Source of the DNA: the human T2T-CHM13v2.0 reference genome, Homo sapiens
NCBI GenBank assembly: GCA_009914755.4
Contig: CP068257.2
Coordinates: 704,001-768,000 of the forward strand
Direction of reading: 5' to 3'
DNA length: 64,000 nucleotides
The notes under the pieces were generated by a model. That model was given only the letters and a program-made list of their open reading frames with translations. It was not told where the DNA came from and did not search any database. Below, one piece after another: positions 1,949-46,930 of this stretch. The stretch's first letter is position 1; every line of letters begins with the position of its first letter. Both the position numbers and the translations under genes were made by a program.

Positions 1949-2016
1949 CTCTGCACTGTTAACCGAGGTGATTTAACTCGTGTCAAGGCTGTGCCCACAG
2001 GGGGATTGAGACATGT
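1949..2016. other. Landmark monomer (example copy). Its GATC site is replaced by GTTAAC (HpaI-like) and it carries 'CCGAGG'. Occurs once per HOR and was used here as the HOR phase anchor.
   Basis: 'ctctgcactgttaaccgaggtgatttaactc' is seen exactly once per ~1.9-2.1 kb, at 111, 1949, 3924 and so on through 62647. Confidence 0.9.
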
Positions 2017-3377: not shown

Positions 3378-3446
3378 CGCTTCAATGATCACCCATGTGA
3401 TGCAACTCTTGCCTAGGCTTTGCCTACAGGGGACATTGTGACATAT
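3378..3446. repeat. Reference copy of the monomer that is absent from d-form 28-mer HORs (H7, H21, H27, H32).
   Basis: The monomer 'cgcttcaatgatcacccatgtgatgcaactcttgcctaggctttgcctacaggggacattgtgacatat' follows a near-identical monomer in 29-mers. In H7, near 13060-13110, only one monomer of this pair is present. Confidence 0.8.
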
Positions 3447-3581
3447 CTCTGCACTGATCTCCCAGGTGCTGTAACATTAGTCTAGACTCTGGCTACACGG
3501 CATTGTGACATATCACTGCACTGATCAACCAGGTGATATAACACTTGTCTAAGCCCTGCCTACAGGGGGCTTGTGACATAT

Positions 3582-3650
3582 CTCTGCACTGATCACCCAG
3601 GTGATATAACTCTTCTCTAGGATCTGCCTACAGGGTGCTTTGCGACATAT
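3582..3650. repeat. Reference copy of the monomer that is absent from b-form 28-mer HORs (H1, H3, H6, H17, H20, H25).
   Basis: H2 reads ...ggcttgtgacatat[ctctgcactgatcacccaggtgatataactcttctctaggatctgcctacagggtgctttgcgacatat]ccctgcaatg. H3 reads ggcttgtgacatat|ccctgcaatg at 5554/5555. Confidence 0.85.
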
Positions 3651-3923
3651 CCCTGCAATGATCACCCAGGTGATCTAACTCTTGTTTAAGCTCTGCCTAA
3701 AGGGGCATTGTGACAGACCTCTGCACTGATCACTCAGGTGATGTAACTATTGTCTAGGCTCTGCTTAAAGGGGCCTTGTCACATACCTCTGTACTGATCA
3801 CCCAGGTGATGTAACTCTTGTCTAGCCTCTGCTTTCACTGCATATTGTGACATATCTATGCGCTGATCACCTTAGTGATGTAACACTTGTGTAGGCTCGG
3901 CCTACAGGGGAATATTGACATAT

Positions 3924-5827
3924 CTCTGCACTGTTAACCGAGGTGATTTAACTCTTGTCTAGGCTGTGCCCACAGGGGAATTGAGACATGTCTCTGCACT
4001 GATCCCGAGGTGATCCAACTGTTGCCTGGTCTCTGCCTACTGGGGACATTGTGACATATCTCTGCAGTGATCTCCCAGGTGCTGTAACTTTAGTCTAGGC
4101 TCTGGCTACACGGCTTTGTGAGATATCACTGCACTGATCACCCTGGTGATATAAATCTTGTCTAGGCTCTGCCTACAATGGCCTTGTGACATATCTCTGC
4201 ACTGATCACCCAGGTGATATAACTCTTCTCTAGGATCTGACCACAGGGTGCTTTGTGGCATTTCCCTGCAATGATCACCCAGGTGAAATACCACTTGCCA
4301 AGGCTCTGCCTACAGGGGCATTGCAATATATCTCTGCACTTATCACCTCGGTCTTGCAACTCTTTTCTAGGATCTGCCCACAGGGTGCCTTGTGACGTAT
4401 CCCAGCAAGGATTACCCAGGTGATGTACCTCTCATCAAGGCTCTGCCTACAGGCACATTGCGATGTATCTCTGCACTGATCACCTAGGTCATGTAACTTT
4501 GTCTAGGCTCTGCCTACGATGGCATTGTGACATATCTCTGCACTAATCATCCAAGTGATGTAACCCTTGTCTAGGATCTGCCTAAATTAACTTTGTGACA
4601 TAACCCTGTACTGATCATCCAGGTGATGGGGCTTTTGTCTAGGCTCTGCCTAAGGGGGCATTGTGACATATTTCTGCATTGATCACCCAGGTGGCGAACT
4701 CTTCTCTTGGATCTGCCTATGGGGGCATTGTGACAAATCTCTGCACTGATAACCAAGGTGATGTAACGGTTGTGTAACCTCTGCCTACAGGGGAATTGTG
4801 AGAGATCTCGCCACTGATCACCCAAGTGATGAAACCATTGTCTAGGCTTTGCGTACAGGGGGCTTTGTGACATACCTTTGCACTGATCACCCAGGTGATG
4901 TAACACATCTAAGTTCGGCCTAAAGGAGCTTTGTGACATATCTCTGCACTGATCACTTAGGTGATGGAACACTTTTATAAGCACTGCCTACAGGGAATTT
5001 TGACAAATCTCTGCACTGATCACCTAGGTGATGTAACGCTTGTCTACCCTCTGTCCAACGGGGCATTGTGAAATATCTCTGCACTGATCACCCAGGTGAT
5101 TCAACTCTTGACTAGGATCTGCCTACAGAGGTTATTGTGAAATATCTCTGCACTGATAAACTAGGTGGTGTAATCCTTATCGAAGCTCTGCCTACAGGGG
5201 CGTTTTCACATATCCCTGAAGTGATGACAAAGGTGATGTAACTCTTGCCTAGGCTTTGCCTACAGGGGACATAGGACATATATCTGCACTGATCACCCAG
5301 GTGATGCAACTGTAGCCTAGGCTTTGCCTACAGGGGACATTGTGACATATCGCTTCAATGATCACCCATGTGATGCAACTCTTGCCTAGGCTTTGCCTAC
5401 AGGGGACATTGTGACATATCTCAGCACTGATGTCCCAGGTGCTGTAACATTAGTCTAGACTCTGGCTACACGGCATTGTGACATATCACTGCACTGATCA
5501 ACCAGGTGATATAACTCTTGTCTAGGCTCTGCCTACAGGGGGCTTGTGACATATCCCTGCAATGATCACCCAGGTGATCTAACTCTTGTTTAAGCTCTGC
5601 CTAAAGGGGCATTGTGACAGATCTCTGCACTGATCACTCAGGTGATGTAACTATTGTCTAGGCTCTGCTTAAAGGGGCCTTGTCACATACCTCTGCACTG
5701 ATCACCCAGGTGATGTAACTCTTGTCTAGACTCTGCTTTCACGGCATATTGTGACATATCCATGCGCTGATCACCTTAGTGATGTAACACTTCTGTAGGC
5801 TCGGCCTACAGGGGAATATTGACATAT
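3924..5827. repeat. H3: HOR copy, 1904 bp, 28-mer, subtype b. Lacks the 'ctttgcgacatat' monomer; junction at 5554/5555.
   Basis: Landmark at 3924. Paired overlapping ORFs 4106-4294 (MVFHLGDH) and 4162-4359 (MQDRGDK). 137-aa ORF has the 'NRYITLVIS' variant. Confidence 0.9.
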
Positions 5828-7801
5828 CTCTGCACTGTTAACCGAGGTGATTTAACTCTTGTCTAGGCTGTGCCCACAGGGGGATTGAGACATGTCTCTG
5901 CACTGATCCCGAGGTGATCCAACTGTTGCCTGGTCTCTGCCTACTGGGGACATTGTGACATATCTCTGCACTGATCTCCCAGGTGCTGTAACTTTAGTCT
6001 AGGCTCTGGCTACACGGCATTGTGACATATCACTGCACTGATCACCCAGGTGATATAAATCTTGTCTAGGCTCTGCCTACAATGGCCTTGTGACATATCA
6101 CTGCACTGATCACCCAGGTGATATAACTCTTCTCTAGGATCTGACCACAGGGTGCTTTGTGGCATTTCCCTGCAATGATCACCCAGGTGATATACCACTT
6201 GCCAAGGCTCTGCCTACAGGGGCATTGCAATGTATCTCTGCACTGATCACCTCGTTCTTGTAACTCTTTTCTAGGATCTGCCCACAGGGTGCCTTGTGAC
6301 GTATCCCAGCAAGGATTACCCAGGTGATGTACCTCTCATCAAGGCTCTGCCTACAGGCACATTGCGATGTATCTCTGCACTGATCACCTAGGTCATGTAA
6401 CTTTTGTCTAGGCTCTGCCTACGATGGCATTGTGACATATCTCTGCACTAATCATCCAAGTGATGTAACCCTTGTCTAGGATCTGCCTAAATTAACTTTG
6501 TGACATAACCCTGTACTGATCATCCAGGTGATGGGGCTTTTGTCTAGGCTCTGCCTTAAGGGGGCATTGTGACATATTTCTGCATTGATCACCCAGGTGG
6601 CGAACTCTTCTCTTGGATCTGCCTATGGGGGCATTGTGACAAATCTCTGCACTGATCACCCAGGTGATGTAACTGTTGTGTAACCTCTGCCTACAGGGGA
6701 ATTGGGAGAGATCTCGCCACTGATCACCCAAGTGATGTAACCATTGTCTAGGCTTTGCTTACAATGGGCTTTGTGACATACCTTTGCACTGATCACCCAG
6801 GTGATGTAACACATCTATGTTCGACCTAAAGGAGCTTTGTGACATATCTCTGCACTGATCACTTAGGTGATGGAACACTTTTATAAGCACTGCCTACAGG
6901 GAATTTTGACAAATCTCTGCACTGATCACCTAGGTGATGTAACGCTTGTCTACCCTCTGTCCAACGGGGCATTGTGAAATATCTCTGCACTGATCACCCA
7001 GGTGATTCAACTCTTGACTAGTATCTGCCTACAGAGGTTATTGTGAAATATCTCTGCACTGATAAACTAGGTGGTGTAATCCTTATCGAAGCTCTGCCTA
7101 CAGGGGCGTTTTCACATATCCCTGAAGTGATGACAAAGGTGATGTAACCTTTGCCTAGGCTTTGCCTACAGGGGATATAAGACATATATCTGCACTGATC
7201 ACCCAGGTGATGCAACTCTAGCCTAGGCTTTGCCTACAGGGGACATTGTGACATATCGCTTCAATGATCACCCATGTGATGCAACTATTGCCTAGGCTTT
7301 GCCTACAGGGGACATTGTGACATAAATCTGCACTGATCTCCCAGGTGCTGTAACATTAGTCTAGACTCTGGCTACACGGCATTGTGACATATCACTGCAC
7401 TGATCAACCAGGTGATATAACTCTTGTCTAGGCCCTGCCTACAGGGGGCTTGTGACATATCTCTGCACTGATCACCCAGGTGATATAACTCTTCTCTAGG
7501 ATCTGCCTACAGGGTGCTTTGCGACATATCCCTACAATGATCACCCAGGTGATCTAACTCTTGTTTAAGCTCTGCCTAAAGGGGCATTGTGACAGACCTC
7601 TGCACTTATCACTCAGGTGATGTAACTATTGTCTAGGCTCTGCTTAAAGGGGCCTTGTCACATACCTCTGCACTGATCACCCAGGTGATGTAACTCTTGT
7701 CTAGACTCTGTTTCACGGCATATTGTGACATATCTATGCGCTGATCACCTTAGTGATGTAACACTTGTGTAGGCTCGGCCTACAGGGGAATATTGACATA
7801 T
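5828..7801. repeat. H4: HOR copy, 1974 bp, 29-mer, subtype a.
   Basis: Landmark at 5828. ORFs 6010-6198 ('DQCSDMSQ'), 6492-6731 and 7018-7215 ('MSYIPCRQ...GRY'). Confidence 0.9.
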
Positions 7802-9775
7802 CTCTGCACTGTTAACCGAGGTGATTTAACTCTTGTCTAGGCTGTGCCCACAGGGGGATTGAGACATGTCTCTGCACTGATCCCGAGGTGATACAACTGT
7901 TGCCTGGTCTCTGCCTACTGGGGACATTGTGACATATCTCTGCACTGATCTCCCAGGTGCTGTAACTTTAGTCTAGGCTCTGGCTACACGGCATTGTGAC
8001 ATATCACTGCACTGATCACCCAGGTGATATAAATGTTGTCTAGGCTCTGCCTACAATGGCCTTGTGACATATCTCTGCACTGATCACCCAGGTGATATAA
8101 CTCTTCTCTAGGATCTGACCACAGGGTGCTTTGTGGCATTTCCCTGCAATGATCACCCAGGTGATATACCACTTGCCAAGGCTCTGCCTACAGGGGCATT
8201 GCAATGTATCTCTGCACTGATCACCTCGGTCTTGTAACTCTTTTCTAGGATCTGCCCACAGGGTGCCTTGTGACGTATCCCAGCAAGGATTACCCAGGTG
8301 ATGTACCTCTCATCAAGGCTCTGCCTACAGGCACATTGCGATGTATCTCTGCACTGATCACCTAGGTCATGTAACTTTTGTCTAGGCTCTGCCTACGATG
8401 GCATTGTGACATATCTCTGCACTAATCATCCAAGTGATGTAACCCTTGTCTAGGATCTGCCTAAATTAACGATGCGACATAAACCTGTACTGATCATCCA
8501 GGTGATGGGGCTTTTGTCTAGGCTCTGCCTAAGGGGGCATTGTGACATATTTCTGCATTGATCACCCAGGTGGCAAACTCTTCTCTTGGATCTGCCTATG
8601 GTGGCATTGTGACAAATCTCTGCACTGATCACCCAGGTGATGTAACTGTTGTGTAACCTCTGCCTACAGGGGAATTGTGAGAGATCTCACCACTGATCAC
8701 CCAAGTGATGTAACCATTGTCTAGGCTTTGCGTACAGGGGGCTTTGTGACATACCTTTGCACTGATCACCCAGGTGATGTAACACATCTAAGTTCGGCCT
8801 AAAGGAGCTTTGTGACATACCTCTGCACTGATCACTTAGGTGATGGAACACTTTTATAAGCACTGCCTACAGGGAATTTTGACAAATCTCTGCACTGATC
8901 ACCTAGGTGATGTAACGCTTGTCTACCCTCTGTCCAACGGGGCATTGTGAAATATCTCTGCATTGATCACCCAGGTGATTCAACTCTTGACTAGGATCTG
9001 CCTACAGAGGTTATTGTGAAATATCTCTGCACTGATAAACTAGGTGGTGTAATCCTTATCGAAGCTCTGCCTACAGGGGCATTTTCACATATCCCTGAAG
9101 TGATGACAAAGGTGATGTAACCCTTGCCTAGGCTTTGTCTACAGGGGACATAGAACATATATCTGCACTGATCACCCAGGTGATGCAACTCTAGCCTAGG
9201 CTTTGCCTACAGGGGACATTGTGACATATCGCTTCAATGATCACCCATGTGATGCAACTCTTGCCTAGGCTTTGCCTACAGGGGACATTGTGACATATCT
9301 CTGCACTGATCTCCCAGGTGCTGTAACATTAGTCTAGGCTCTGGCTACACGGCATTGTGACATATCACTGCACTGATCAACCAGGTGATATAACTCTTGT
9401 CTAGGCCCTGTCTACAGGGGGCTTGTGACATATCTCTGCACTGATCACCCAGGTGATATAACTCTTCTCTAGGATCTGCCTACAGGGTGCTTTGCGACAT
9501 ATCCCTGCAATGATCACCCAGGTGATCTAACTCTTGTTTAAGCTCTGCCTAAAGGGGCATTGTGACAGATCTCTGCACTGATCACTCAGGTGATGTAACT
9601 ATTGTCTAGGCTCTGCTTAAAGGGGCCTTGTCACATACCTCTGTACTGATCACCCAGGTGATGTAACTCTTGTCTAGACTCTGCTTTCACGGCATATTGT
9701 GACATATCTATGCGCTGATCACCTTAGTGATGTAACACTTGTGTAGGCTCGGCCTACAGGGGAATATTGACATAT
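7802..9775. repeat. H5: HOR copy, 1974 bp, 29-mer, subtype c.
   Basis: Landmark at 7802. ORFs 8450-8632 ('RRVCHLGDQ', 'CRIVNLGRS') and 8991-9188 ('MFYVPCRQ'). Confidence 0.9.
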
Positions 9776-11679
9776 CTCTGCACTGTTAACCGAGGTGATT
9801 TAAATCTTGTCTAGGCTGTGCCCACAGGGGAATTCAGACATGTCTCTGCACTGATCCCGAGGTGATCCAACTGTTGCCTGGTCTCTGCCTACTGGGGACA
9901 TTGTGACATATCTCTGCACTGATCTCCCAGGTGCTGTAACTTTAGTCTAGGCTCTGGCTACACGGCTTTGTGAGATATCATTGCACTGATCACCCAGGTG
10001 ATATAAATCTTGTCTAGGCTCTGCCTACAATGGCCTTGTGACATATCTCTGCACTGATCACCCAGGTGATATAACTCTTCTCTAGGATCTGACCACAGGG
10101 TGCTTTGTGGCATTTCCCTGCAATGATCACCCAGGTGAAATACCACTTGCCAAGGCTCTGCCTACAGGGGCATTGCAATATATCTCTGCACTGATCACCT
10201 CGGTCTTGCAACTCTTTTCTAGGATCTGCCCACAGGGTGCCTTGTGACGTATCCCAGCAAGGATTACCCAGGTGATGTACCTCTCATCAAGGCTCTGCCT
10301 ACAGGCACATTGCGATGTATCTCTGCACTGATCACCTAGGTCATGTAACTTTTGTCTAGGCTCTGCCTACGATGGCATTGTGACATATCTCTGCACTAAT
10401 CATCCAAGTGATGTAACCCTTGTCTAGGATCTGCCTAAATTAACTTTGTGACATAACCCTGTACTGATCATCCAGGTGATGGGGCTTTTGTCTAGGCTCT
10501 GCCTAAGGGGGCATTGTGACATATTTCTGCATTGATCACCCAGGTGGCGAACTCTTCTCTTGGATCTGCCTATGGGGGCATTGTGACAAATCTCTGCACT
10601 GATAACCCAGGTGATGTAACGGTTGTGTGACCTCTGCCTACAGGGGAATTGTGAGAGATCTCGCCACTGATCACCCAAGTGATGAAACCATTGTCTAGGC
10701 TTTGCGTACAGGGGGCTTTGTGACATACCTTTGCACTGATCACCCAGGTGATGTAACACATCTAAGTTCGGCCTAAAGGAGCTTTGTGACATATCTCTGC
10801 ACTGATCACTTAGGTGATGGAACACTTTTATAAGCACTGCCTACAGGGAATTTTGACAAATCTCTGCACTGATCACCTAGGTGATGTAACGCTTGTCTAC
10901 CCTCTGTCCAACGGGGCATTGTGAAATATCTGTGCACAGATCACCCAGGTGATTCAACTCTTGACTAGGATCTGCCTACAGAGGTTATTGTGAAATATCT
11001 CGGCACTGATAAACTAGGTGGTGTAATCCTTATCGAAGCTCTGCCTACAGGGGCGTTTTCACATATCCCTGAAGTGATGACAAAGGTGATGTAACTCTTG
11101 CCTAGGCTTTGCCTACAGGGGACATAGGACATATATCTGCACTGATCACCCAGGTGATGCAACTGTAGCCTAGGCTTTGCCTACAGGGGACATTGTGACA
11201 TATCGCTTCAATGATCACCCATGTGATGCAACTCTTGCCTAGGCTTTGCCTACAGGGGACATTGTGACATATCTCAGCACTGATGTCCCAGGTGCTGTAA
11301 CATTAGTCTAGACTCTGGCTACACGGCATTGTGACATATCACTGCACTGATCAACCAGGTGATATAACTCTTGTCTAGGCTCTGCCTACAGGGGGCTTGT
11401 GACATATCCCTGCAATGATCACCCAGGTGATCTAACTCTTGTTTAAGCTCTGCCTAAAGGGGCATTGTGACAGACCTCTGCACTGATCACTCAGGTGATG
11501 TAACTATTGTCTAGGCTCTGCTTAAAGGGGCCTTGTCACATACCTCTGCACTGATCACCCAAGTGATGTAACTCTTGTCTAGACTCTGTTTCACGGCATA
11601 TTGTGACATATCTATGCGCTGATCACCTTAGTGATGTAACACTTGTGTAGGCTCGGCCTACAGGGGAATATTGACATAT
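9776..11679. repeat. H6: HOR copy, 1904 bp, 28-mer, subtype b.
   Basis: Landmark at 9776. ORFs 9958-10146 (MVFHLGDH), 10014-10211 (MQDRGDQ) and 10424-10837 ('RSHNRYITWVIS'). Confidence 0.9.
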
Positions 11680-13584
11680 CTCTGCACTGTTAACCGAGGT
11701 GATTTAACTCTTGTCTAGGCTGTGCCCACAGGGGGATTGAGACATGTCTCTGCACTGATCCCGAGGTGATCCAACTGTTGCCTGGTCTCTGCCTACTGGG
11801 GACATTGTGACATATCTCTGCACTGATCTCCCAGGTGCTGTAACTTTAGTCTAGGCTCTGGCTACACGGCATTGTGACATATCACTGCACTGATCACCCA
11901 GGTGATATAAATCTTGTCTAGGCTCTGCCTACAATGGCCTTGTGACATATCTCTGCACTGATCACCCAGGTGATATAACTATTCTCTAGGATCTGACCAC
12001 AGGGTGCTTTGTGGCATTTCCCTGCAATGATCACCCAGGTGATATACCACTTGCCAAGGCTCTGCCTACAGGGGCATTGCAATGTATCTCTGCACTGATC
12101 ACCTCGGTCTTGTAACTCTTTTCTAGGATCTGCCCACAGGGTGCCTTGTGACGTATCCCAGCAAGGATTACCCAGGTGATGTACCTCTCATCAAGGCTCT
12201 GCCTACAGGCACATTGCGATGTATCTCTGCTCTGATCACCTAAGTCATGTAACTTTTGTCTAGGCTCTGCCTACGATGGCATTGTGACAAATCTCTGCAC
12301 TAATCATCCAAGTGATGTAACACTTGTCTAGGATCTGCCTAAAGTAACTTTGTGACATAACCCTGTACTGATCATCCAGGTGATGCGGCTTTTGTCTAGG
12401 CTCTGCTTAAGGGGGCATTGTGACATATTTCTGCATTGATCACCCAGGTGGCGAACTCTTCTCTTGGATCTGCCTATGGGGGCATTGTGACAAATCTCTG
12501 CACTGATCACCCAGGTGATGTAACTGTTGTGTAACCTCTGCCTACAGGGGAATTGTGTGAGATCTCGCCACTGATCACCCAAGTGATGTAACCATTGTCT
12601 AGGCTTTGCGTATAGGGGGCTTTGTGACATACCTTTGCACTGATCACCCAGGTGATGTAACACATCTAAGTTCGGCCTAAAGGAGCTTTGTGACATATCT
12701 CTGCACTGATCACTTAGGTGATGGAACACTTTTATAAGCACTGCCTACAGGGAATTTTGACAAATCTCTGCACTGATCACCTAGGTGATGTAACGCTTGT
12801 CTACCCTCTGTCCAACGGGGCATTGTGAAATATCTCTGCACTGATCACCCAGGTGATTCAACTATTGACTAGGATCTGCCTACAGAGGTTATTGTGAAAT
12901 ATCTCTGCACTGATAAACTAGGTGGTGTAATCCTTATCGAAGCTCTGCCTGCAGGGGCGTTTTCACATATCCCTGAATTGATGACAAAGGTGATGTAACC
13001 CTTGCCTAGGCTTTGCCTACAGGGGACATAGGACATATATCTGCACTGATCACCCAGGTGATGCAACTCTAGCCTAGGCTTTGCCTACAGGGGACATTGT
13101 GACATATCTCTGCACTGATCTCCCAGGTGCTGTAACATTAGTCTAGACTCTGGCTACACGGCATTGTGACATATCACTGCACTGATCAACCAGGTGATAT
13201 AACTCTTGTCTAGGCCCTGACTACAGGGGGCTTGTGACATATCTCTGCACTGATCACCCAGGTGATATAACTCTTCTCTAGGGTCTGCCTACAGGGTGCT
13301 TTGCGACATATCCCTGCAATGATCACCCAGGTGATCTAACTCTTGTTTAAGCTCTGCCTAAAGGGGCATTGTGACAGACCTCTGCACTGATCACTCAGGT
13401 GATGTAACTATTGTCTAGGCTCTGCTTAAAGGGGCCTTGTCACATACCTCTGCACTGATAACCCAGGTGATGTAACTCTTGTCTAGCCTCTGCTTTCACG
13501 GCATATTGTGACATATCTATGCGCTGATCACCTTAGTGATGTAACACTTGTGTAGGCTCGGCCTACAGGGGAATATTGACATAT
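11680..13584. repeat. H7: HOR copy, 1905 bp, 28-mer, subtype d. Lacks the 'cgcttcaatgatcacccatgtgatgcaac' monomer.
   Basis: Landmark at 11680. ORFs 12328-12741 ('DLTQFP', 'KSRITW', 'KVTLGRS') and 12869-13066 ('FVINSG...APAGRAS'). The stretch 13066-13584 is one monomer shorter than 3336-3923. Confidence 0.9.
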
Positions 13585-30400: not shown

Positions 30401-30900
30401 TGATCACTTAGGTGATGGAACACTTTTATAAGCACTGCCTACAGGGAATTTTGACAAATCTCTGCACTGATCACCTAGGTGATGTAACGCTTGTCTACCC
30501 TCTGTCCAACGGGGCATTGTGAAATATCTCTGCACTGATCACCCAGGTGATTCAACTCTTGACTAGGATCTGCCTACAGAGGTTATTGTGAAATATCTCT
30601 GCACTGATAAACTAGGTGGTGTAATCCTTATCGAAGCTCTGCCTACAGGGGCGTTTTCACATATCCCTGAAGTGATGACAAAGGTGATGTAACTCTTGCC
30701 TAGGCTTTGCCTACAGGGGACATAGGACATATATCTGCACTGATCACCCAGGTGATGCAACACTAGCCTAGGCTTTGCCTACAGGGGACATTGTGACATA
30801 TCGCTTCAGTGATCACCCATGTGATGCAACTCTTGCCTTGGCTTTGCCTACAGGGCACATTGTGACATAACTCTGCACTGATCTCCCAGGTGCTGTAACA
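26950..30900. repeat. Two-HOR segment (h-i) duplicated at +7,894. Copy 2.
   Basis: See copy 1. Identity ends near 30870-30965, where H16 switches to an a-type tail. Confidence 0.8.
27401..29374. repeat. H15: HOR copy, 1974 bp, 29-mer, subtype h. Copy of H11.
   Basis: Landmark variant 'ttaactgagg' at 27401. ORFs 27583-27771, 28049-28462 and 28590-28787 are identical or near-identical to the H11 ORFs. Confidence 0.9.
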
Positions 30901-31347
30901 TTAGTCTAGACTCTGGCTACACGGCATTGTGACATATCACTGCACTGATCAACCAGGTGATATAACACTTGTCTAAGCCCTGCCTACAGGGGGCTTGTGA
31001 CATATCTCTGCACTGATCACCCAGGTGATATAACTCTTCTCTAGGATCTGCCTACAGGGTGCTTTGCGACATATCCCTGCAATGATCACCCAGGTGATCT
31101 AACTCTTGTTTAAGCTCTGCCTAAAGGGGCATTGTGACAGACCTCTGCACTGATCACTCAGGTGATGTAAGTATTGTCTAGGCTCTGCTTAAAGGGGCCT
31201 TGTCACATACCTCTGTACTGATCACCCAGGTGATGTAACTCTTGTCTAGCCTCTGCTTTCACTGCATATTGTGACATATCTATGCGCTGATCACCTTAGT
31301 GATGTAACACTTGTGTAGGCTCGGCCTACAGGGGAATATTGACATAT
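29375..31347. repeat. H16: HOR copy, 1973 bp, 29-mer. Chimeric: i-type head, a-type tail.
   Basis: Landmark at 29375. ORFs 30023-30205, 30135-30359 and 30202-30435 match H12. The tail from ~30965 ('tataacacttgtctaagccc') matches the H2 tail at 3537. Confidence 0.85.
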
Positions 31348-37199: not shown

Positions 37200-39103
37200 C
37201 TCTGCACTGTTAACCGAGGTGATTTAACTCTTGTCTAGGCTGTGCCCACAGGGGAATTGAGACATGTCTCTGCACTGATCCCGAGGTGATCCAACTGTTG
37301 CCTGGTCTCTGCCTCCTGGGGACATTGTGACATATCTCTGCACTGATCTCCCAGGTGCTGTAAATTTAGTCTAGGCTCTGGCTACACGGCTTTGTGAGAT
37401 ATCACTGCACTGATCACCCAGGTGATATAAACGTTGTCTAGGCTCTGCCTACAATGGCCTTGTGACATATCTCTGCACTGATCACCCAGGTGATATAACT
37501 CTTCTCTAGGATCTGACCACAGGGTGCTTTGTGGCATTTCCCTGCAATGATCACCCAGGTGAAATACCACTTGCCAAGGCTCTGCCTACAGGGGCATTGC
37601 AATATATCTCTGCACTGATCACCTCGGTCTTGCAACTCTTTTCTAGGATCTGCCCACAGGGTGCCTTGTGACGTATCCCAGCAAGGATTACCCAGGTGAT
37701 GTACCTCTCATCAAGGCTCTGCCTACAGGCACATTGCGATGTATCTCTGCACTGATCACCTAGGTCATGTAACTTTTGTCTAGGCTCTGCCTACGATGGC
37801 ATTGTGACATATCTCTGCACTAATCATCCAAGTGATGTAACCCTTGTCTAGGATCTGCCTAAATTAACTTTGTGACATAACCCTGTACTGATCATCCAGG
37901 TGATGGGGCTTTTGTCTAGGCTCTGCCTAAGGGGGCATTGTGACATATTTCTGCATTGATCACCCAGGTGGCGAACTCTTCTCTTGGATCTGCCTATGGG
38001 GGCATTGTGACAAATCTCTGCACTGATAACCCAGGTGATGTAACGGTTGTGTGACCTCTGCCTACAGGGGAATTGTGAGAGATTTCGCCACTGATCACCC
38101 AAGTGATGAAACCATTGTCTAGGCTTTGCGTACAGGGGGCTTTGTGACATACCTTTGCACTGATCACCCAGGTGATGTAACACATCTAAGTTCGGCCTAA
38201 AGGAGCTTTGTGACATATCTCTGCACTGATCACTTAGGTGATGGAACACTTTTATAAGCACTGCCTACAGGGAATTTTGACAAATCTCTGCACTGATCAC
38301 CTAGGTGATGTAACGCTTGTCTACCCTCTGTCCAACGGGGCATTGTGAAATATCTGTGCACAGATCACCCAGGTGATTCAACTCTTGACTAGGATCTGCC
38401 TACAGAGGTTATTGTGAAATATCTCGGCACTGATAAACTAGGTGGTGTAATCCTTATCGAAGCTCTGCCTACAGGGGCGTTTTCACATATCCCTGAAGTG
38501 ATGACAAAGGTGATGTAACTCTTGCCTAGGCTTTGCCTACAGGGGACATAGGACATATATCTGCACTGATCACCCAGGTGATGCAACTGTAGCCTAGGCT
38601 TTGCCTACAGGGGACATTGTGACATATCGCTTCAATGATCACCCATGTGATGCAACTCTTGCCTAGGCTTTGCCTACAGGGGACATTGTGACATATCTCA
38701 GCACTGATGTCCCAGGTGCTGTAACATTAGTCTAGACTCTGGCTACACGGCATTGTGACATATCACTGCACTGATCAACCAGGTGATATAACTCTTGTCT
38801 AGGCTCTGCCTACAGGGGGCTTGTGACATATCCCTGCAATGATCACCCAGGTGATCTAACTCTTGTTTAAGCTCTGCCTAAAGGGGCATTGTGACAGACC
38901 TCTGCACTGATCACTCAGGTGATGTAACTATTGTCTAGACTCTGCTTAAAGGGGCCTTGTCACATACCTCTGCACTGATCACCCAGGTGATGTAACTCTT
39001 GTCTAGACTCTGTTTCACGGCATATTGTGACATATCTATGCGCTGATCACCTTAGTGATGTAACACTTGTGTAGGCTCGGCCTACAGGGGAATATTGACA
39101 TAT
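37200..39103. repeat. H20: HOR copy, 1904 bp, 28-mer, subtype b. Copy of H6.
   Basis: Landmark at 37200. ORFs 37382, 37438 and 37848-38261 ('RSHNRYITWVIS') match H6. Confidence 0.9.
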
Positions 39104-41008
39104 CTCTGCACTGTTAACCGAGGTGATTTAACTCTTGTCTAGGCTGTGCCCACAGGGGGATTGAGACATGTCTCTGCACTGATCCCGAGGTGATCCAACT
39201 GTTGCCTGGTCTCTGCCTACTGGGGACATTGTGACATATCTCTGCACTGATCTCCCAGGTGCTGTAACTTTAGTCTAGGCTCTGGCTACACGGCATTGTG
39301 ACATATCACTGCACTGATCACCCAGGTGATATAAATCTTGTCTAGGCTCTGCCTACAATGGCCTTGTGACATATCTCTGCACTGATCACCCAGGTGATAT
39401 AACTATTCTCTAGGATCTGACCACAGGGTGCTTTGTGGCATTTCCCTGCAATGATCACCCAGGTGATATACCACTTGCCAAGGCTCTGCCTACAGGGGCA
39501 TTGCAATGTATCTCTGCACTGATCACCTCGGTCTTGTAACTCTTTTCTAGGATCTGCCCACAGGGTGCCTTGTGACGTATCCCAGCAAGGATTACCCAGG
39601 TGATGTACCTCTCATCAAGGCTCTGCCTACAGGCACATTGCGATGTATCTCTGCTCTGATCACCTAAGTCATGTAACTTTTGTCTAGGCTCTGCCTACGA
39701 TGGCATTGTGACAAATCTCTGCACTAATCATCCAAGTGATGTAACACTTGTCTAGGATCTGCCTAAAGTAACTTTGTGACATAACCCTGTACTGATCATC
39801 CAGGTGATGCGGCTTTTGTCTAGGCTCTGCCTAAGGGGGCATTGTGACATATTTCTGCATTGATCACCCAGGTGGCGAACTCTTCTCTTGGATCTGCCTA
39901 TGGGGGCATTGTGACAAATCTCTGCACTGATCACCCAGGTGATGTAACTGTTGTGTAACCTCTGCCTACAGGGGAATTGTGTGAGATCTCGCCACTGATC
40001 ACCCAAGTGATGTAACCATTGTCTAGGCTTTGCGTAAAGGGGGCTTTGTGACATACCTTTGCACTGATCACCCAGGTGATGTAACACATCTAAGTTCGGC
40101 CTAAAGGAGCTTTGTGACATATCTCTGCACTGATCACTTAGGTGATGGAACACTTTTATAAGCACTGCCTACAGGGAATTTTGACAAATCTCTGCACTGA
40201 TCACCTAGGTGATGTAACGCTTGTCTACCCTCTGTCCAACGGGGCATTGTGAAATATCTCTGCACTGATCACCCAGGTGATTCAACTATTGACTAGGATC
40301 TGCCTACAGAGGTTATTGTGAAATATCTCTGCACTGATAAACTAGGTGGTGTAATCCTTATCGAAGCTCTGCCTGCAGGGGCGTTTTCACATATCCCTGA
40401 ATTGATGACAAAGGTGATGTAACCCTTGCCTAGGCTTTGCCTACAGGGGACATAGGACATATATCTGCACTGATCACCCAGGTGATGCAACTCTAGCCTA
40501 GGCTTTGCCTACAGGGGACATTGTGACATATCTCTGCACTGATCTCCCAGGTGCTGTAACATTAGTCTAGACTCTGGCTACACGGCATTGTGACATATCA
40601 CTGCACTGATCAACCAGGTGATATAACTCTTGTCTAGGCCCTGACTACAGGGGGCTTGTGACATATCTCTGCACTGATCACCCAGGTGATATAACTCTTC
40701 TCTAGGGTCTGCCTACAGGGTGCTTTGCGACATATCCCTGCAATGATCACCCAGGTGATCTAACTCTTGTTTAAGCTCTGCCTAAAGGGGCATTGTGACA
40801 GACCTCTGCACTGATCACTCAGGTGATGTAACTATTGTCTAGGCTCTGCTTAAAGGGGCCTTGTCACATACCTCTGCACTGATAACCCAGGTGATGTAAC
40901 TCTTGTCTAGCCTCTGCTTTCACGGCATATTGTGACATATCTATGCGCTGATCACCTTAGTGATGTAACACTTGTGTAGGCTCGGCCTACAGGGGAATAT
41001 TGACATAT
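39104..41008. repeat. H21: HOR copy, 1905 bp, 28-mer, subtype d. Copy of H7.
   Basis: Landmark at 39104. ORFs 39752-40165 and 40293-40490 match H7. Confidence 0.9.
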
Positions 41009-42982
41009 CTCTGCACTGTTAACCGAGGTGATTTAACTCTTGTCTAGGCTGTGCCCACAGGGGGTTTGAGACATGTCTCTGCACTGATCCCGAGGTGATC
41101 CAACTGTTGCCTGGTCTCTGCCTACTGGGGACATTGTGACATATCTCTGCACTGATCTCCCAGGTGCTGTAATTTTAGTCTAGGCTCTGGCTACACGGCA
41201 TTGTGACATATCACTGCACTGATCACCCAGGTGATATAAATCTTGTCTAGGCTCTGCCTACAATGACCTTGTGACATATCTCTGCACTGATCACCCAGGT
41301 GATATAACTCTTCTCTAGGATCTGACCACAGGGTGCTTTGTGGCATTTCCCTGCAATGATCACCGAGGTGATATACCACTTGTCAGGGCTCTGCCTACAG
41401 GGGCATTGCAACGTATCTCTGCACTGATCACCTCGGTCTTGTAACTCTTTTCTAGGATCTGCCCACAGGGTGCCTTGTGACGTATCCCAGCAAGGATTAC
41501 CCAGGTGATGTACCTCTCATCAAGGCTCTGCCTACAGGCACATCGCGATGTATCTCTGCACTGATCACCTAGGTCATGTAACTTTTGTCTAGGCTCTGCC
41601 TACGATGGCATTGTGACATATCTCTGCACTAATCATCCAAGTGATGTAACCCTTGTCTAGGATCTGCCTAAATTAACTTTGTGACATAACCCTGTACTGA
41701 TCATCCAGGTGATGGGGCTTTTGTCTAGGCTCTGCCTAAGGGGGCATTGTGACTTATTTCTGCATTGATCACCCAGGTGGCGAACTCTTCTCTTGGATCT
41801 GCCTATGGGGGCATTGTGACAAATCTCTGCACTGATCACCCAGGTGATGTAACTGTTGTGTAACCTCTGCCTACAGGGGAATTGTGAGAGATCTCGCCAC
41901 TGATCACCCAAGTGACGTAACCATTGTCTAGGCTTTGCGTACAGGGGGCTTTGTGACATACCTTTGCACTGATCACCCAGGTGATGTAACACATCTAAGT
42001 TCGGCCTAAAGGAGCTTTGTGACATATCTCTGCACTGATCACCTAGGTGATGGAACACTTTTATAAGCACTGCCTACAGGGAATTTTGACAAATCTCTGC
42101 ACTGATCACCTAGGTGATGTAACTCTTGTCTACCCTCTGTCCAACGGGGCATTGTGAAATATCTCTGCACTGATCACCCAGGTGATTCAACTCTTGACTA
42201 GGATCTGCCTACAGAGGTTATTGTGAAATATCTCTGCACTGATAAACTAGGTGGTGTAATCCTTATCGAAGCTCTGCCTACAGGGGCGTTTTCACATATC
42301 CCTGAAGTGATGACAAAGGTGATGTAACTCTTGCCTAGGCTTTGCCTACAGGGGACATAGGACATATATCTGCGCTGATCACCCAGGTGATGCAACTCTA
42401 GCCTAGGCTTTGCCTACAGGGGACATTGTGACATATCGCTTCAATGATCACCCATGTGATGCAACTCTTGCCTTGGCTTTGACTATAGGGGACATTGTGA
42501 CATATCTCTGCACTGATCTCCCAGGTGCTGTAACATTAGTCTAGACTCTGGCTACACGGCATTGTGACATATCACTGCACTAATCAACCAGGTGACATAA
42601 CTCTTGTCTAGGCCCTGCCTACAGGGGGCTTGTGACATATCTCTGCACTGATCACCCAGGTGATATAACTCTTCTCTAGGGTCTGCCTACAGGGTGCTTT
42701 GCGACATATCCCTGCAATGATCACCCAGGTGATCTAACTCTTGTTTAAGCTCTGCCTAAAGGGGCATTGTGACAGATGTCTGCACTGATTACTCAGGTGA
42801 TGTAACTATTGTCTAGGCTCTGCTTAAAGGGGCCTTGTCACATACCTCTGCACTGATCACCCAGGTGATGTAACTCTTGTCTAGCCTCTGCTTTCACGGC
42901 ATATTGTGACATATCTATGCGCTGATCACCTTAGTGATGTAACACTTGTGTAGGCTCGGCCTACAGGGGAATATTGACATAT
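41009..42982. repeat. H22: HOR copy, 1974 bp, 29-mer, subtype e. Copy of H8.
   Basis: Landmark at 41009. ORFs 41657-42070 and 42198-42395 match H8. Confidence 0.9.
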
Positions 42983-44956
42983 CTCTGCACTGTTAACCGA
43001 GGTGATTTAACTCTTGTCTAGGCTGTGCCCACAGGGGGATTGAGACATGTCTCTGCCATGATCCCGAGGTGATCCAACTGTTGCCTGGTCTCTGCCTACT
43101 GGGGACATTGTGACATATCTCTGCACTGATCTCCCAGGTGCTGTAATTTTAGTCTAGGCTCTGGCTACACGGCATTGTGACATATCACTGCACTGATCAC
43201 CCAGGTTATATAAATCTTGTCTAGGCTCTGCCTACAATGGCCTTGTGACATATCTCTGCACTGATCACCCAGGTGATATAACTCTTCTCTAGGATCTGAC
43301 CACAGGGTGCTTTGTGGCATTTCCCTGCAATGATCACCCAGGTGATATACCACTTGCCAAGGCTCTGCCTACAGGGGCATTGCAATGTATCTCTGCACTG
43401 ATCACCTCGGTCTTGTAACTCTTTTCTAGGATCTGCCCACAGGGTGCCTTGTGACGTATCCCAGCAAGGATTACCCAGGTGATGTACCTCTCATCAAGGC
43501 TCTGCCTACAGGCACATTGCGATGTATCTCTGCACTGATCACCTAGGTCATGTAACTTTTGTCTGGGCTCTGCCTACGATGGCATTGTGACATATCTCTG
43601 CACTAATCATCCAAGTGATGTAACCCTTGTCTAGGATCTGCCTAAATTAACTTTGTGACATAACCCTGTACTGATCATCCAGGTGATGGGGCTTTTGTCT
43701 AGGCTCTGCCTAAGGGGGCATTGTGACATATTTCTGCATTGATCACGCAGGTGGCGAACTCTTCTCTTGGATCTGCCTATGGGGGCATTGTGATAAATCT
43801 CTGCACTCATCACCCAGGTGATGTAACTGTTGTGTAACCTCTGCCTACAGGGGAATTGTGAGAGATCTCGCCACTGATCACCCAAGTGATGTAACCATTG
43901 TCTAGGCTTTGCGTACAGGGGGCTTTGTGACATACCTTTGCACTGATCACCCAGGTGATGTAACACATCTAAGTTCGGCCTAAAGGAGCTTTGTGACATA
44001 TCTCTGCACTGATCACTTAGGTGATGGAACACTTTTATAAGCACTGCCTACAGGGAATTTTGACAAATCTCTGCACTGATCACCTAGGTGATGTAATGCT
44101 TGTCTACCCTCTGTCCAACGGGGCATTGTGAAATATCTCTGCACTGATCACCCAGGTGATTCAACTCTTGACTAGGATCTGCCTACAGAGGTTATTGTGA
44201 AATATCTCTGCACTGATAAACTAGGTGGTGTAATACTTATCGAAGCTCTGCCTACAGGTGCGTTTTCACATATCCCTGAAGTGATGACAAAGGTGATGTA
44301 ACCCTTGCCTAGGCTTTGCCTACAGGGGACATAGGACATATATCTGCACTGATCACCCAGGTGATGCAACTCTAGCCTAGGCTTTGCCTACAGGGGACAT
44401 TGTGACATATCGCTTCAATGATCACCCATGTGATGCAACACTTGCCTAGGCTTTGCCTACAGGGGACATTGTGACATATCTCTGCACTGATCTCCCAGGT
44501 GCTGCAACATTAATCTAGAGTCTGGCTACACGGCATTGTGACATATCACTGCACTGATCAACCAGGTGATATAACTCTTGTCTAGGTCCTGCCTACAGAG
44601 GGCTTGTGACATATCTCTGCACTGATCACCCAGGTGATATAACTCTTCTCTAGGATCTGCCTACAGGGTGATTTGCGACATATCCCTGCAATGATAACCC
44701 AGGTGATCTAACTCTTGTTTAAGCTCTGCCTAAAGGGGCATTGTGACAGACCTGTGCACTGATCACTAAGGTGATGTAACTATTGTCTAGGCTCTGCTTA
44801 AAGGGGCCTTGTCACATACCTCTGCACTGATAACCCAGGTGATGTAACTCTTGTCTAGCCTCTGCTTTCACGGCATATTGTGACATATCCATTCGCAGAT
44901 CACCTTAGTGATGTAACAGTTGTGTAGGCTCGGCCTACAGGGGAATATTGACATAT
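42983..44956. repeat. H23: HOR copy, 1974 bp, 29-mer, subtype f. Copy of H9.
   Basis: Landmark at 42983. ORFs 43631-44044 and 44172-44369 are identical to the H9 ORFs. Local difference 'ggttatataaat' at ~43205 versus 'ggagagataaat' in H9. Confidence 0.9.
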
Positions 44957-46930
44957 CTCTGCACTGTTAACCGAGGTGATTTAACTCTTGTCTAGGCTGT
45001 GCCCACAGCGGGATTGAGACATGTCTCTGCACTGATCCCGAGGTGATCCAACTGTTGCCTGGTCTCTGCCTACTGGGGACATTGTGACATATCTCTGCAC
45101 TGATCTCCCAGGTGCTGTAACTTTAGTCTAGGCTCTGACTACACGGCATTGTGACATATCACTGCACTGATCACCCAGGTGATATAAATCTTGTCTAGGC
45201 TCTGCCTACAATGGCCTTGTGACATATCTCTGCACTGATCACCCAGGTGATATAACTCTTCTCTAGGATCTGACCACAGGGTGCTTTGTGGCATTTCCCT
45301 GCAATGATCACCCAGGTGATATACCACTTGCCAAGGCTCTGCCTACAGGGGCATTGCAATGTATCTCTGCACTGATCACCTCGGTCTTGTAACTCTTTTC
45401 TAGGACCTGCCCACCGGGTGCCTTGTGACGTATCCCAGCAAGGATTACCCAGGTGATGTACCTCTCATCAAGGCTCTGCCTACAGGCACATTGCGATGTA
45501 TCTCTGCACTGATCGCCTAGGTCATGTAACTTTTGTCTAGGCTCTGCCTACGATGGCATTGTGACATATCTCTGCACTAATCATCCAAGTGATGTAACCG
45601 TTGTCTAGGATCTGCCTAAATTAACTTTGTGACATAACCCTGTACTGATCATCCAGGTGATGGGGCTTTTGTCTAGGCTCTGCCTAAGGGGGCATTGTGA
45701 CATATTTCTGCATTGATCACCCAGGTGGCAAACTCTTCTCTTGGATCTGCCTATGGGGGCATTGTGACAAATCTCTGCACTGATCACCCAGGTGATGTAA
45801 CTGTTGTGTAACCTCTGCCTACAGGGGAATTGTGAGAGATCTCACCACTGATCACCCAAGTGACGTAACCATTGTCTAGGCTTTGCGTACAGGGGGCTTT
45901 GTGACATACCTTTGCACTGATCACCCAGGTGATGTAACACATCTAAGTTCGGCCTAAAGGAGCTTTGTGACATACCTCTGCACTGATCACTTAGGTGATG
46001 GAACACTTTTATAAGCACTGCCTACAGGGAATTTTGACAAATCTCTGCACTGATCACCTAGGTGATGTAACGCTTGTCTACCCTCTGTCCAACGGGGCAT
46101 TGTGAAATATCTCTGCATTGATCACCCAGGTGATTCAACTCTTGACTAGGATCTGCCTACAGAGGTTATTGTGAAATATCTCTGCACTGATAAACTAGGT
46201 GGTGTAATCCTTATCGAAGCTCTGCCTACAGGGGCGTTTTCACATATCCCTGAAGTGATGACAAAGGTGATGTAACCCTTGCCTAGGCTTTGTCTACAGG
46301 GGACATAGAACATATATCTGCACTGATCACCCAGGTGATGCAACTCTAGCCTAGGCTTTGCCTACAGGGGACATTGTGACATATCGCTTCAATGATCACC
46401 CATGTGATGCAACTCTTGCCTAGGCTTTGCCTACAGGGGACATTGTGACATATCTCTGCACTGATCTCCCAGGTGCTGTAACATTAGTCTAGACTCTGGC
46501 TACACGGCATTGTGACATATCACTGCACTGATCAACCAGGTGATATAACACTTGTCTAAGCCCTGCCTACATGGGGCTTGTGACATATCTCTGCACTGAT
46601 CACCCAGGTGATATAACTCTTCTCTAGGATCTGCCTACAGGGTGCTTTGCGACATATCCCTGCAATGATCACCCAGGTGATCTAACTCTTGTTTAAGCTC
46701 TGCCTAAAGGGGCATTGTGACAGACCTCTGCACTGATCACTCAGGTGATGTAACTATTGTCTAGGCTCTGCTTAACGGGGCCTTGTCACATACCTCTGTA
46801 CTGATCACCCAGGTGATGTAACTCTTGTCTAGCCTCTGCTTTCACGGCATATTGTGACATATCTATGCGCTGATCACCTTAGTGATGTAACACTTGTGTA
46901 GGCTCGGCCTACAGGGGAATATTGACATAT
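44957..46930. repeat. H24: HOR copy, 1974 bp, 29-mer, c/g-like subtype.
   Basis: Landmark at 44957. ORFs 45605-45787 ('RRVCHLGDQ') and 46146-46343 ('MFYVPCRQ'). 'taggacctgcccaccgggtg' variant at ~45401. Confidence 0.85.

What the first reader, a model, noticed from the sequence alone, without database searches (positions are those of the whole stretch)
3445..44984. ~14-kb multi-HOR block duplicated at a 27,424-bp offset
Seven consecutive HORs plus a flanking tail (3445-17560) recur at 30870-44984 with a constant offset of 27,424 bp, equal to 14 HOR units. Subtype-defining substitutions are shared across the copies: 'cggctttgtgagatat' at 4111 and 31535, and identical ORFs at 4571 and 31995, 12328 and 39752, and 16207 and 43631. 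The copies still differ at roughly 1 position per 100 bp. Examples are the 1-bp 'gatcacccagg' to 'gatccccagg' change at 31631, 'gcgtatagg' at 12611 versus 'gcgtaaagg' at 40035, and 'gagagataaa' at 15781 versus 'gttatataaa' at 43205. This looks like a segmental amplification within the array, likely by unequal sister-chromatid exchange, that is old enough to have accumulated point differences. Such large internal paralogs are also the structures most prone to collapse or mis-join in assemblies.
Basis: seen in the sequence. Interest (0 to 1): 0.55.

Follow-up and report, generated by a model that had tools for sequence, protein, structure and literature searches.

The report
Duplicated multi-repeat block inside satellite DNA
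A 14.1-kb stretch of seven higher-order repeat units occurs twice, 27.4 kb apart and 99.7% identical, inside a 68-bp satellite array that looks like primate beta satellite; it is real, but it is the ordinary recombination-driven turnover already described for such arrays.

Summary
The whole 64-kb window is one uninterrupted 68-bp satellite. It is organised in ~1,974-bp higher-order repeats (HORs, 29 monomers; variants of 27, 28 and 31).

Block 3447-17561 recurs at 30871-44985 at a constant +27,424 bp (14 HORs). The copies differ by 36 substitutions and two 1-bp indels, so identity is 99.73%. That is about 1 difference per 370 bp, not 1 per 100. Divergence jumps to 2.0-2.2% at both edges, which matches the background between arbitrary HORs (median 1.9%).

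Most differences are private to one copy, split about evenly between the two. Twelve cluster in 9411-10009, which looks like a conversion patch.

The mechanism needs amending. The 13.3-kb spacer is not duplicated after copy 2, so a single 14-HOR unequal exchange does not fit. The block is the youngest pair of an at least three-copy multi-HOR macro-repeat; an older copy at 46454-56825 lacks two HORs. Each of the two young copies has one novel in-register junction. This implies at least two homologous exchange events or a long-tract conversion.

Two younger duplications also lie in the window. Similar nested duplications and macro-repeats are documented in alpha-satellite HOR arrays. Interest is low. 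Assembly correctness cannot be tested without reads.

The parts
1..64000 (+). Uninterrupted 68-bp satellite array in one orientation. It is organised in ~1,974-bp HORs (29 monomers), with variants of 1,835 (27), 1,904-1,906 (28) and 2,109 bp (31). There are 31 complete HORs (H0-H30, starting at 1583) plus two partial ones.
   Evidence: TRF finds one array at 1-63992 with period 68 and 76% matches. The anchor CTGGCTACACGG gives the HOR phase. HOR-to-HOR median substitution divergence is 1.9%. There are no long inverted repeats. GC is flat at 47%. There are 1,019 GATC sites, about one per monomer, and CpG observed/expected is 0.20.
3447..17561 (+). Copy 1 of the duplicated block: the last 42 bp of H0, H1-H7 complete, and the first 464 bp of H8 (14,115 bp).
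   Evidence: Gapped alignment difference list; HOR matrix; nearest-paralog scan in which the best hit is offset +27,424 for nearly every 500-bp window.
30871..44985 (+). Copy 2 of the duplicated block: the last 42 bp of H14, H15-H21, and the first 464 bp of H22. It is 99.73% identical to copy 1.
17562..30870 (+). 13,309-bp spacer between the copies: the H8 tail plus H9-H14. These are different HOR subtypes and the spacer is not repeated after copy 2.
   Evidence: H8-H14 versus H22-H28 diverge by 1.4-2.1%. The H8 tail is nearest to H12, not to H22 or H28.
17496..17561 (+). Interval containing the right-hand junction, which is specific to copy 1. H8 is an in-register hybrid HOR, with a head shared with H22 and H28 and an unrelated tail.
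   Evidence: The last marker shared by H8, H22 and H28 is at 17495. The first H8-specific differences are at 17562 and 17570, and 17588 and 17599 are shared only with H12. H22 and H28 remain alike for about 800 bp more (3 differences in 802 columns), whereas H8-H22 has 15.
30871..30966 (+). Interval containing the left-hand junction, which is specific to copy 2. An H14 tail of its own subtype is joined in register to the block.
   Evidence: The last site distinguishing H14 from H0 is 30870. The first site distinguishing H15 from H11 is 30967 (offset 7,894 mismatch list). The tails of H0, H3, H17 and H22, each of which precedes an A-type HOR, cluster at 1-2 differences in 211 columns. H14 differs from them by 7-8.
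46454..56825 (+). Third, older copy of the same multi-HOR block (H23-H27 plus the H28 head). It lacks the third and fourth HORs and diverges 0.3-1.0% from copies 1 and 2. It begins 1,468 bp after the end of copy 2 (44985), separated from it only by the tail of H22.
   Evidence: HOR matrix values are H23~H1/H15 0.5-0.6, H24~H2/H16 0.9-1.0, H25~H5/H19 0.4-0.5, H26~H6/H20 0.6-0.7 and H27~H7/H21 0.3-0.4. The H28 head has 2 differences from the H8 and H22 heads and at least 12 from all others. Divergence from copy 2 falls at 30870/46453, the same left position as for copies 1 and 2.
9411..10009 (+). Patch with background-level divergence between the copies (partner 36835-37433). It is probably a gene-conversion tract from a donor outside the window.
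   Evidence: 12 of the 36 substitutions fall in 599 bp (binomial P = 1.6e-8). Within the patch, H4 and H18 are each closer to H23 than to each other. The differences are a mix of shared polymorphisms and variants private to each copy.
18991..22867 (+). Younger two-HOR duplication inside the spacer; the partner is 26885-30761 (offset 7,894 bp, 4 HORs).
   Evidence: 3 mismatches in 3,877 bp on the ungapped diagonal. H9-H13 and H10-H14 each diverge by 0.1%.
49565..54067 (+). Youngest duplication; the partner is 59498-64000 (offset 9,933 bp, 5 HORs). It is cut off by the end of the window.
   Evidence: 1 mismatch (52679) in 4,503 bp, with a longest exact run of 3,114 bp. H25-H30 diverge by 0.0%.

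Best explanation
The window is non-coding satellite DNA: a 68-bp monomer array, most likely primate or human beta satellite, homogenised as ~2-kb HORs. The finding is a genuine paralogous pair of a 14.1-kb block of 7.2 HORs.

Shown:
- The two copies are in perfect HOR register.
- Their edges are sharp, each lying inside a stretch that is identical among the partners involved.
- They are the two closest members of an at least three-copy multi-HOR macro-repeat. The HOR subtype order is A-B-C-A'-D-E-F-G, and the third copy lacks C-A'.
- They are separated by 13.3 kb of other HOR subtypes that is not itself duplicated.

Inferred:
- The arrangement arose by homologous, HOR-register recombination within the array, between sister chromatids or between homologues.
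- Either two unequal exchanges placed the spacer between two neighbouring macro-repeat copies, or one long-tract non-reciprocal event (gene conversion or break-induced replication) copied 14.1 kb from one macro-repeat copy over another.
- The copies then diverged by independent point mutation, about 0.19% outside the patch.
- One ~0.6-kb conversion patch followed.
- Younger duplications of 2 to 2.3 or more HORs elsewhere in the window show the same process continuing.

No coding or regulatory function is implied.
For: The HOR matrix, background and diagonal statistics come. The same order of HOR length variants appears in both copies.

Differences are mostly private singletons. About 16 are derived in copy 2 and 15-17 in copy 1, with transitions to transversions at 20:16. 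This fits independent mutation after copying, not misalignment or read error.

The third copy and the shared G-head are shown. The copy-specific junctions are shown. Both lie in stretches of local identity with no inserted bases, as expected for homologous recombination.

The further nested duplications at offsets 7,894 and 9,933 are shown.

Literature. Unequal crossover and gene conversion are the accepted drivers of satellite array change (PMC9859433). 'Recent nested duplication', 'macro-repeats' and zones of recent duplication are described in human alpha-satellite HOR arrays, and HORs in beta satellite (bioRxiv 10.1101/2021.07.12.452052). The superHOR concept is defined in PMC8336445.
Against: - No reads are available, so the existence of two copies in the genome rests on the assembly.
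- The order and number of recombination events cannot be reconstructed from one 64-kb window of one haplotype.
- Donors for the spacer subtypes and for the 9411-10009 patch are not in the window.
- The assignment to beta satellite rests on the 68-bp period, roughly one GATC site per monomer and my memory of the consensus. Searches of the paper library for monomer sub-strings found nothing relevant. GC is 47%, against the 52% quoted for beta satellite genome-wide.
Confidence: 0.85

Rival explanations
1. A single unequal sister-chromatid exchange misaligned by 14 HORs produced a 27.4-kb tandem duplication. The distal half of one copy was replaced later.
For: The offset is exactly 14 HORs and the copies are in register. 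Unequal exchange is the textbook mechanism for satellite arrays.
Against: Only 14.1 of the 27.4 kb is shared. H8-H14 versus H22-H28 diverge by 1.4-2.1%, which is background, and H0-H14 by 1.84%.

What follows copy 2 is a third copy of the block that is older (0.3-1.0%) than the copy 1-copy 2 split (0.2-0.3%). It cannot be a later local derivative. A second exchange that brought in older material would be needed.
Confidence: 0.1
2. Assembly artefact: one genomic block, or two alleles of it, was placed twice in the assembly.
For: Near-identical multi-kb paralogs inside satellites are where assemblers fail. A divergence of 0.27% is in the range of allelic differences. Nothing in the window can exclude this directly.
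Against: Both copies are embedded in register in continuous array, with different flanks on both sides at background divergence. There are 38 fixed differences, of which 36 are substitutions and only one is a homopolymer-length change. Private variants fall on both copies. There is a structured 0.6-kb patch. A third, independently diverged copy and two other nested duplications show that such paralogy is a property of this array.
Confidence: 0.05
3. The window is a regular third-order tandem repeat (a superHOR array) with a fixed 14-HOR period, rather than a discrete duplication.
For: Offset 27,424 is the strongest self-similarity peak of the whole window. A recurring order of HOR subtypes exists.
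Against: Elevated identity on that diagonal is confined to 3447-17561. The three block copies are spaced 14 and then 8 HORs apart, and the third copy is itself two HORs shorter. The spacer subtypes occur nowhere else in the window.
Confidence: 0.03

Closest known systems
Recent nested duplications and macro-repeats within human alpha-satellite HOR arrays (Altemose et al., bioRxiv 10.1101/2021.07.12.452052)
   Same: Blocks of several consecutive HORs are copied within one array. The copies are more alike than the array background. The duplications are local and nested, of different ages. The proposed cause is unequal exchange and related recombination.
   Different: Here the monomer is 68 bp, of beta-satellite type, not the 171-bp alpha satellite. 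The array is presumably not a kinetochore site. The two youngest copies are interspersed with a 13.3-kb spacer rather than adjacent.
superHORs as defined by CentromereArchitect/HORDecomposer (PMC8336445)
   Same: A recurring ordered string of distinct HOR variants (here A-B-C-A'-D-E-F-G) repeats along the array.
   Different: superHORs there are defined on structural (monomer-string) HOR variants of alpha satellite. Here the subtypes are defined mostly by point variants plus three length variants. The recurrence is only three imperfect copies with unequal spacing.
Human beta satellite (Sau3A family) HOR arrays (Waye & Willard 1989 and Greig & Willard 1992, as cited; 'new HORs in beta satellite arrays' from NTRprism)
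   Same: Monomer of about 68 bp. About one GATC site per monomer. Multimeric higher-order units tandemly reiterated at high identity. Strong CpG depletion, consistent with a methylated vertebrate satellite.
   Different: No reference consensus could be aligned with the tools at hand, so the sequence-level match is from memory only. GC here is 47%, against the 52% quoted genome-wide. Chromosome and species of origin are unknown.
Intrachromosomal conversion within homogeneous alpha-satellite arrays (Schindelhauer & Schwarz 2002, cited in PMC9859433; not read)
   Same: Patches of variants are transferred between non-adjacent HORs in register. This is like the 0.6-kb patch at 9411-10009, and possibly like the 14.1-kb block itself.
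   Different: A 14-kb tract would be long for a conversion event. It is not proven here that the large block arose by conversion rather than by two exchanges.

Membership tests
Higher-order repeat (HOR) satellite array | Tandem monomers that are substantially diverged from their neighbours | tested here: met
   TRF finds period 68 and 76% matches over 1-63992.
Higher-order repeat (HOR) satellite array | A multimer of monomers repeated tandemly at much higher identity (more than about 95%) | tested here: met
   31 complete units of ~1,974 bp have a median substitution divergence of 1.9%. BLAST self-alignments at HOR multiples are 95-98% identical including gaps.
Beta satellite (Sau3A family) | Monomer of about 68 bp | tested here: met
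   TRF consensus unit is 68 bp. The 68-bp definition is quoted.
Beta satellite (Sau3A family) | Sau3AI (GATC) site recurring once per monomer | tested here: met
   1,019 GATC sites in about 941 monomers, with modal spacings of 68, 69 and 67 bp.
Beta satellite (Sau3A family) | Sequence similarity to the published or Dfam beta satellite consensus | not testable with these tools
   No reference sequence is available. Searches of the paper library for sub-strings of the monomer found nothing relevant. The resemblance is from memory only.
Beta satellite (Sau3A family) | Primate or human origin | tested here: inconclusive
   An exact 137-aa ORF of the HOR is present on contigs under 2 kb in 10 unrelated metagenome or SRA assemblies. 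These contigs are 86-99.4% identical to the window's HORs (seven of the eight at 95% or more). This pattern fits host contamination, but sample metadata could not be read. CpG observed/expected of 0.20 fits a vertebrate genome.
Intra-array multi-HOR segmental duplication | A run of consecutive HORs whose partners at one constant offset are their closest relatives | tested here: met
   H1-H7 versus H15-H21 diverge by 0.05-0.61%, against a 1.9% background and 0.3-0.9% for the next same-subtype HOR. The nearest-paralog scan agrees.
Intra-array multi-HOR segmental duplication | Discrete boundaries where identity falls to the array background | tested here: met
   Differences are 0.27% inside the block and 2.0-2.2% outside, changing at 3446/3447 and 17561/17562.
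Intra-array multi-HOR segmental duplication | Both copies present in the genome (read support) | not testable with these tools
   No reads or alternative assemblies are available.
Simple tandem duplication by one unequal sister-chromatid exchange | The whole interval between the two copy starts (27.4 kb) is duplicated head to tail | tested here: not met
   Only 14.1 kb is shared. The spacer HORs H8-H14 versus H22-H28 diverge by 1.4-2.1%, and H0-H14 by 1.84%.
superHOR / third-order periodic array | Recurring ordered string of distinct HOR variants | tested here: met
   The order A-B-C-A'-D-E-F-G occurs at H1-H8 and H15-H22, and as A-B-D-E-F-G at H23-H28.
superHOR / third-order periodic array | Regular tandem period of that string along the array | tested here: not met
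   The copies start 14 and then 8 HORs apart. A six-HOR stretch of other subtypes intervenes once.

The most novel reading that the evidence does not exclude
The beta-satellite-like array may carry a genuine third level of organisation: an ~8-HOR, ~15.6-kb macro-repeat. The 99.7% pair would then have been produced by a single in-register non-reciprocal copying event of about 14 kb (long-tract conversion or break-induced replication) rather than by crossovers. That would be direct sequence evidence that very long conversion tracts homogenise non-centromeric satellites.
Probability: 0.25. Interest if true: 0.3.

Novelty: already known. Interest (0 to 1): 0.12.

Why it matters
This matters mainly for practical reasons. 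The 38 copy-specific variants, the two hybrid junctions and the length-variant order (29-28-29-29-27-29-29 monomers) are usable markers. With long reads they can test whether an assembly has kept both copies.

The three layers of duplication differ in divergence: about 0.6%, 0.2-0.27%, and 0.08% and 0.02%. Together they give a small worked example of how a non-centromeric satellite turns over.

The finding does not change the picture of satellite evolution. Unequal exchange, conversion, nested duplications and macro-repeats are already documented for alpha-satellite HOR arrays.

Tried and rejected
- Coding potential. The 'identical ORFs' are one 137-aa minus-strand ORF that recurs in 22 HORs. 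It has no Pfam match (best E = 0.55), so it was rejected as a gene.
- Published sequence. Three searches of the paper library for 14- to 22-nt sub-strings of the monomer found nothing relevant. Waye & Willard 1989 and Schindelhauer & Schwarz 2002 are not held.
- Exact-protein cluster look-up of three ORF variants: none is in the collection.
- The repeat finder returned only 300-nt families dominated by the monomer periodicity, so it could not show the large block. It did report no long inverted repeats.
- A strict 27.4-kb periodic superHOR and a single tandem duplication were both considered. Both were rejected because the spacer is not duplicated.
- Hypermutability as the cause of the 9411-10009 cluster was considered unlikely. 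The homologous region of the sister subtype pair H1/H15 shows one substitution and one indel.
- I could not tell which copy was the donor, or which of H4 and H18 was converted. Both are about equally far from H23 in the patch.
Full report
**What the window is**

Tandem Repeats Finder reports a single array covering 1-63992, with a 68-bp unit and 76% matches between neighbouring monomers. Base composition is flat at about 47% GC. There are no long inverted repeats. GATC occurs 1,019 times, about once per monomer. CpG is at 0.20 of expectation.

A 12-nt anchor (CTGGCTACACGG) recurs twice per ~1,974 bp and defines 31 complete higher-order repeats. These are H0-H30, with H0 starting at 1583. Their lengths are:
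- 1,972-1,974 bp (29 monomers);
- 1,904-1,906 bp (28 monomers);
- 1,835 bp (27 monomers);
- 2,109 bp once (31 monomers).

HORs differ from one another by a median 1.9% in substitutions. This is a classical HOR satellite.

The 68-bp period and the Sau3AI site match the published definition of primate beta satellite. The monomer also resembles the beta-satellite consensus as I remember it. I could not align it to a reference, so that assignment is probable, not proven.

An exact ORF from the HOR turns up on contigs under 2 kb in ten unrelated metagenome or run assemblies. Their sequence is 86-99.4% identical to the window, seven of the eight at 95% or more. This is the pattern of host-DNA contamination.

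**Checking the observation**

Among all offsets up to 40 kb, 27,424 gives the highest ungapped self-identity. On that diagonal, 500-bp windows are 98-100% identical from about 3000 to about 17500. They then drop to about 98%, which is the background for equal-length HORs.

A gapped alignment with every difference listed fixes the block at 3447-17561 versus 30871-44985. It contains 36 substitutions plus a 1-bp deletion (opposite 4208) and a 1-bp insertion (opposite 4498) in copy 2. That is 38 differences in 14,115 bp, or 99.73% identity.

Immediately outside, differences run at 2.0% on the left (36 in 1,782 bp) and 2.2% on the right (45 in 2,001 bp).

In the HOR-by-HOR matrix the +14 pairs H1-H7/H15-H21 are 0.05-0.61%. 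H0/H14 and H8/H22 are 1.84% and 1.62%. Only 4.3% of all pairs are at or below 0.6%. The two copies carry the same sequence of length variants (29-28-29-29-27-29-29 monomers).

The +14 partner is the closest relative, or ties for closest, of each of the seven HORs.

The details need four corrections:
- The copies differ at about 1 position in 370, not 1 in 100.
- The 16-mer marker also occurs in three other HORs.
- One of the three 'identical' ORF pairs differs by two bases.
- The ORFs are a by-product of the repeat, present in 22 HORs with no family match.

**Nature of the differences**

I placed the 36 substitutions on a multiple alignment of all 31 HORs. At most sites one copy has the base found in all 29 other HORs and the other copy has a unique base. 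The unique base is in copy 1 about as often as in copy 2. Transitions to transversions are 20:16.

This is what independent mutation after copying looks like. It is not what misalignment among diverged HORs, or indel-dominated read error, would give.

There are two local oddities:
- Twelve substitutions fall in 9411-10009 (P = 1.6e-8). There, H4 and H18 are each closer to H23 than to each other. The simplest reading is a ~0.6-1.5-kb conversion from a same-subtype donor that is not in the window.
- Three substitutions within four bases at 15782-15785 look like one complex event.

Outside the patch the divergence is 0.19%.

**Context changes the mechanism**

The 13.3-kb spacer (17562-30870: the H8 tail plus H9-H14) consists of other HOR subtypes. 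It is not repeated after copy 2, since H8-H14 versus H22-H28 are at 1.4-2.1%. The sequence to the left of copy 1 is not like the end of the spacer either. A single unequal exchange misaligned by 14 HORs would duplicate the entire 27.4 kb, so that model does not hold on its own.

The block also has a third, older relative directly after copy 2. H23, H24, H25, H26 and H27 match the first, second, fifth, sixth and seventh HORs of the block at 0.3-1.0%. The third and fourth HORs are missing.

The first 464 bp of H8, H22 and H28 are a distinctive shared 'head', with 0-2 differences among the three and at least 12 to all others.

On the right, H22 and H28 stay alike for another ~800 bp (3 differences in 802 columns). 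H8 does not (15 differences, nearest H12). So the 17561|17562 edge is a junction peculiar to copy 1, located within 17496-17561.

On the left, the HOR tails that precede an A-type HOR (H0, H3, H17, H22) cluster at 1-2 differences in 211 columns. H14 is the exception at 7-8 differences. So the 30870|30871 edge is a junction peculiar to copy 2, located within 30871-30966.

Both junctions are in register and lie in stretches of local identity with no extra bases. This is the signature of homologous recombination.

The most economical histories are two:
- (a) Neighbouring copies of an ~8-HOR macro-repeat were separated when two in-register exchanges brought in a 13.3-kb stretch from another part of the array or from another chromatid.
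- (b) One long non-reciprocal tract of about 14 kb was copied from one macro-repeat copy over another.

I cannot separate these with one haplotype.

**More of the same process**

A nearest-paralog scan and diagonal mismatch lists show two younger duplications:
- 18991-22867 versus 26885-30761, with 3 differences in 3,877 bp;
- 49565-54067 versus 59498-64000, with 1 difference in 4,503 bp, running off the window end.

The window therefore holds at least four age layers of multi-HOR copying.

**Comparison with what is known**

Unequal crossover and gene conversion are the accepted engines of satellite change. The T2T centromere study describes 'recent nested duplication', zones of recent duplication and large 'macro-repeats' inside alpha-satellite HOR arrays. 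It reports HORs in beta satellite as well. 'superHORs', recurring strings of HOR variants, have been formalised.

The present case is an instance of these known behaviours in a 68-bp satellite. It meets the tests for a HOR array and for an intra-array multi-HOR duplication. It fails the test for a simple tandem duplication and for a strictly periodic superHOR.

**Verdict**

- The kind of feature is already known.
- Interest is low. The value is mostly practical, as paralog-specific markers for assembly validation.
- An assembly artefact cannot be formally excluded without reads. It is unlikely given the different flanks, the balanced private substitutions and the third diverged copy.

Noticed in passing
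window 18991-22867 and 26885-30761: A younger duplication of about 2 HORs, 4 HORs apart (offset 7,894 bp). It has only 3 mismatches in 3,877 bp and lies wholly inside the spacer between the two large copies.
   Followed up: yes
window 49565-54067 and 59498-64000: The youngest duplication, at offset 9,933 bp (5 HORs). It has 1 mismatch in 4,503 bp and a 3,114-bp exact run. It is cut off by the window end, so its true length is unknown.
   Followed up: yes
window 46454-56825: A third, older copy of the same multi-HOR block (0.3-1.0% from the other two). It begins 1,468 bp after the end of copy 2 (44985), separated from it only by the tail of H22, and lacks the third and fourth HORs. This suggests an underlying ~8-HOR macro-repeat.
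   Followed up: partly
window 9411-10009 (partner 36835-37433): 12 of the 36 substitutions between the copies cluster here (P = 1.6e-8). Both copies are closer to H23 than to each other in this patch. It is probably a conversion tract from a donor outside the window.
   Followed up: partly
window 15782-15785 (partner 43206-43209): Three substitutions within four bases (GAGAG versus GTTAT), with private bases on both copies. It looks like one complex mutational event rather than three independent ones.
   Followed up: no
window 12613 (partner 40037): A three-state site. Copy 1 has T, copy 2 has A, and all 29 other HORs have C. This implies two independent hits at one position, or a hit before and a hit after duplication.
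   Followed up: no
window 54866-55001 (H27, 54253-56361): One HOR is 2,109 bp long because of a two-monomer (135-bp) local duplication. Other structural variants are 28-mers of two different kinds (for example H2 with a 544-bp head, H25 with a 1,292-bp tail) and a 27-mer lacking both monomers (H5, H19).
   Followed up: partly
window 58336-60307 (H29): H29 looks like an in-register hybrid HOR. Its first ~60% is closest to H25/H30 and its last ~40% is identical or nearly identical to H24. This is another recombination junction.
   Followed up: no
every HOR, e.g. window 3436-3735 versus 4049-4348: Within each HOR, a segment of at least 300 bp recurs 613 bp (9 monomers) downstream. The two segments match a common reference at about 89% and 97%. 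The anchor 12-mer therefore appears twice per HOR, which points to an old internal partial duplication of the HOR.
   Followed up: partly
window minus strand, e.g. 18181-18594; loci L001-L008: A 137-aa stop-free ORF recurs in 22 HORs. Gene finders have called it as a protein on short contigs of unrelated metagenome assemblies, which are probably host contamination. This shows that satellite DNA seeds spurious proteins in public protein collections.
   Followed up: partly
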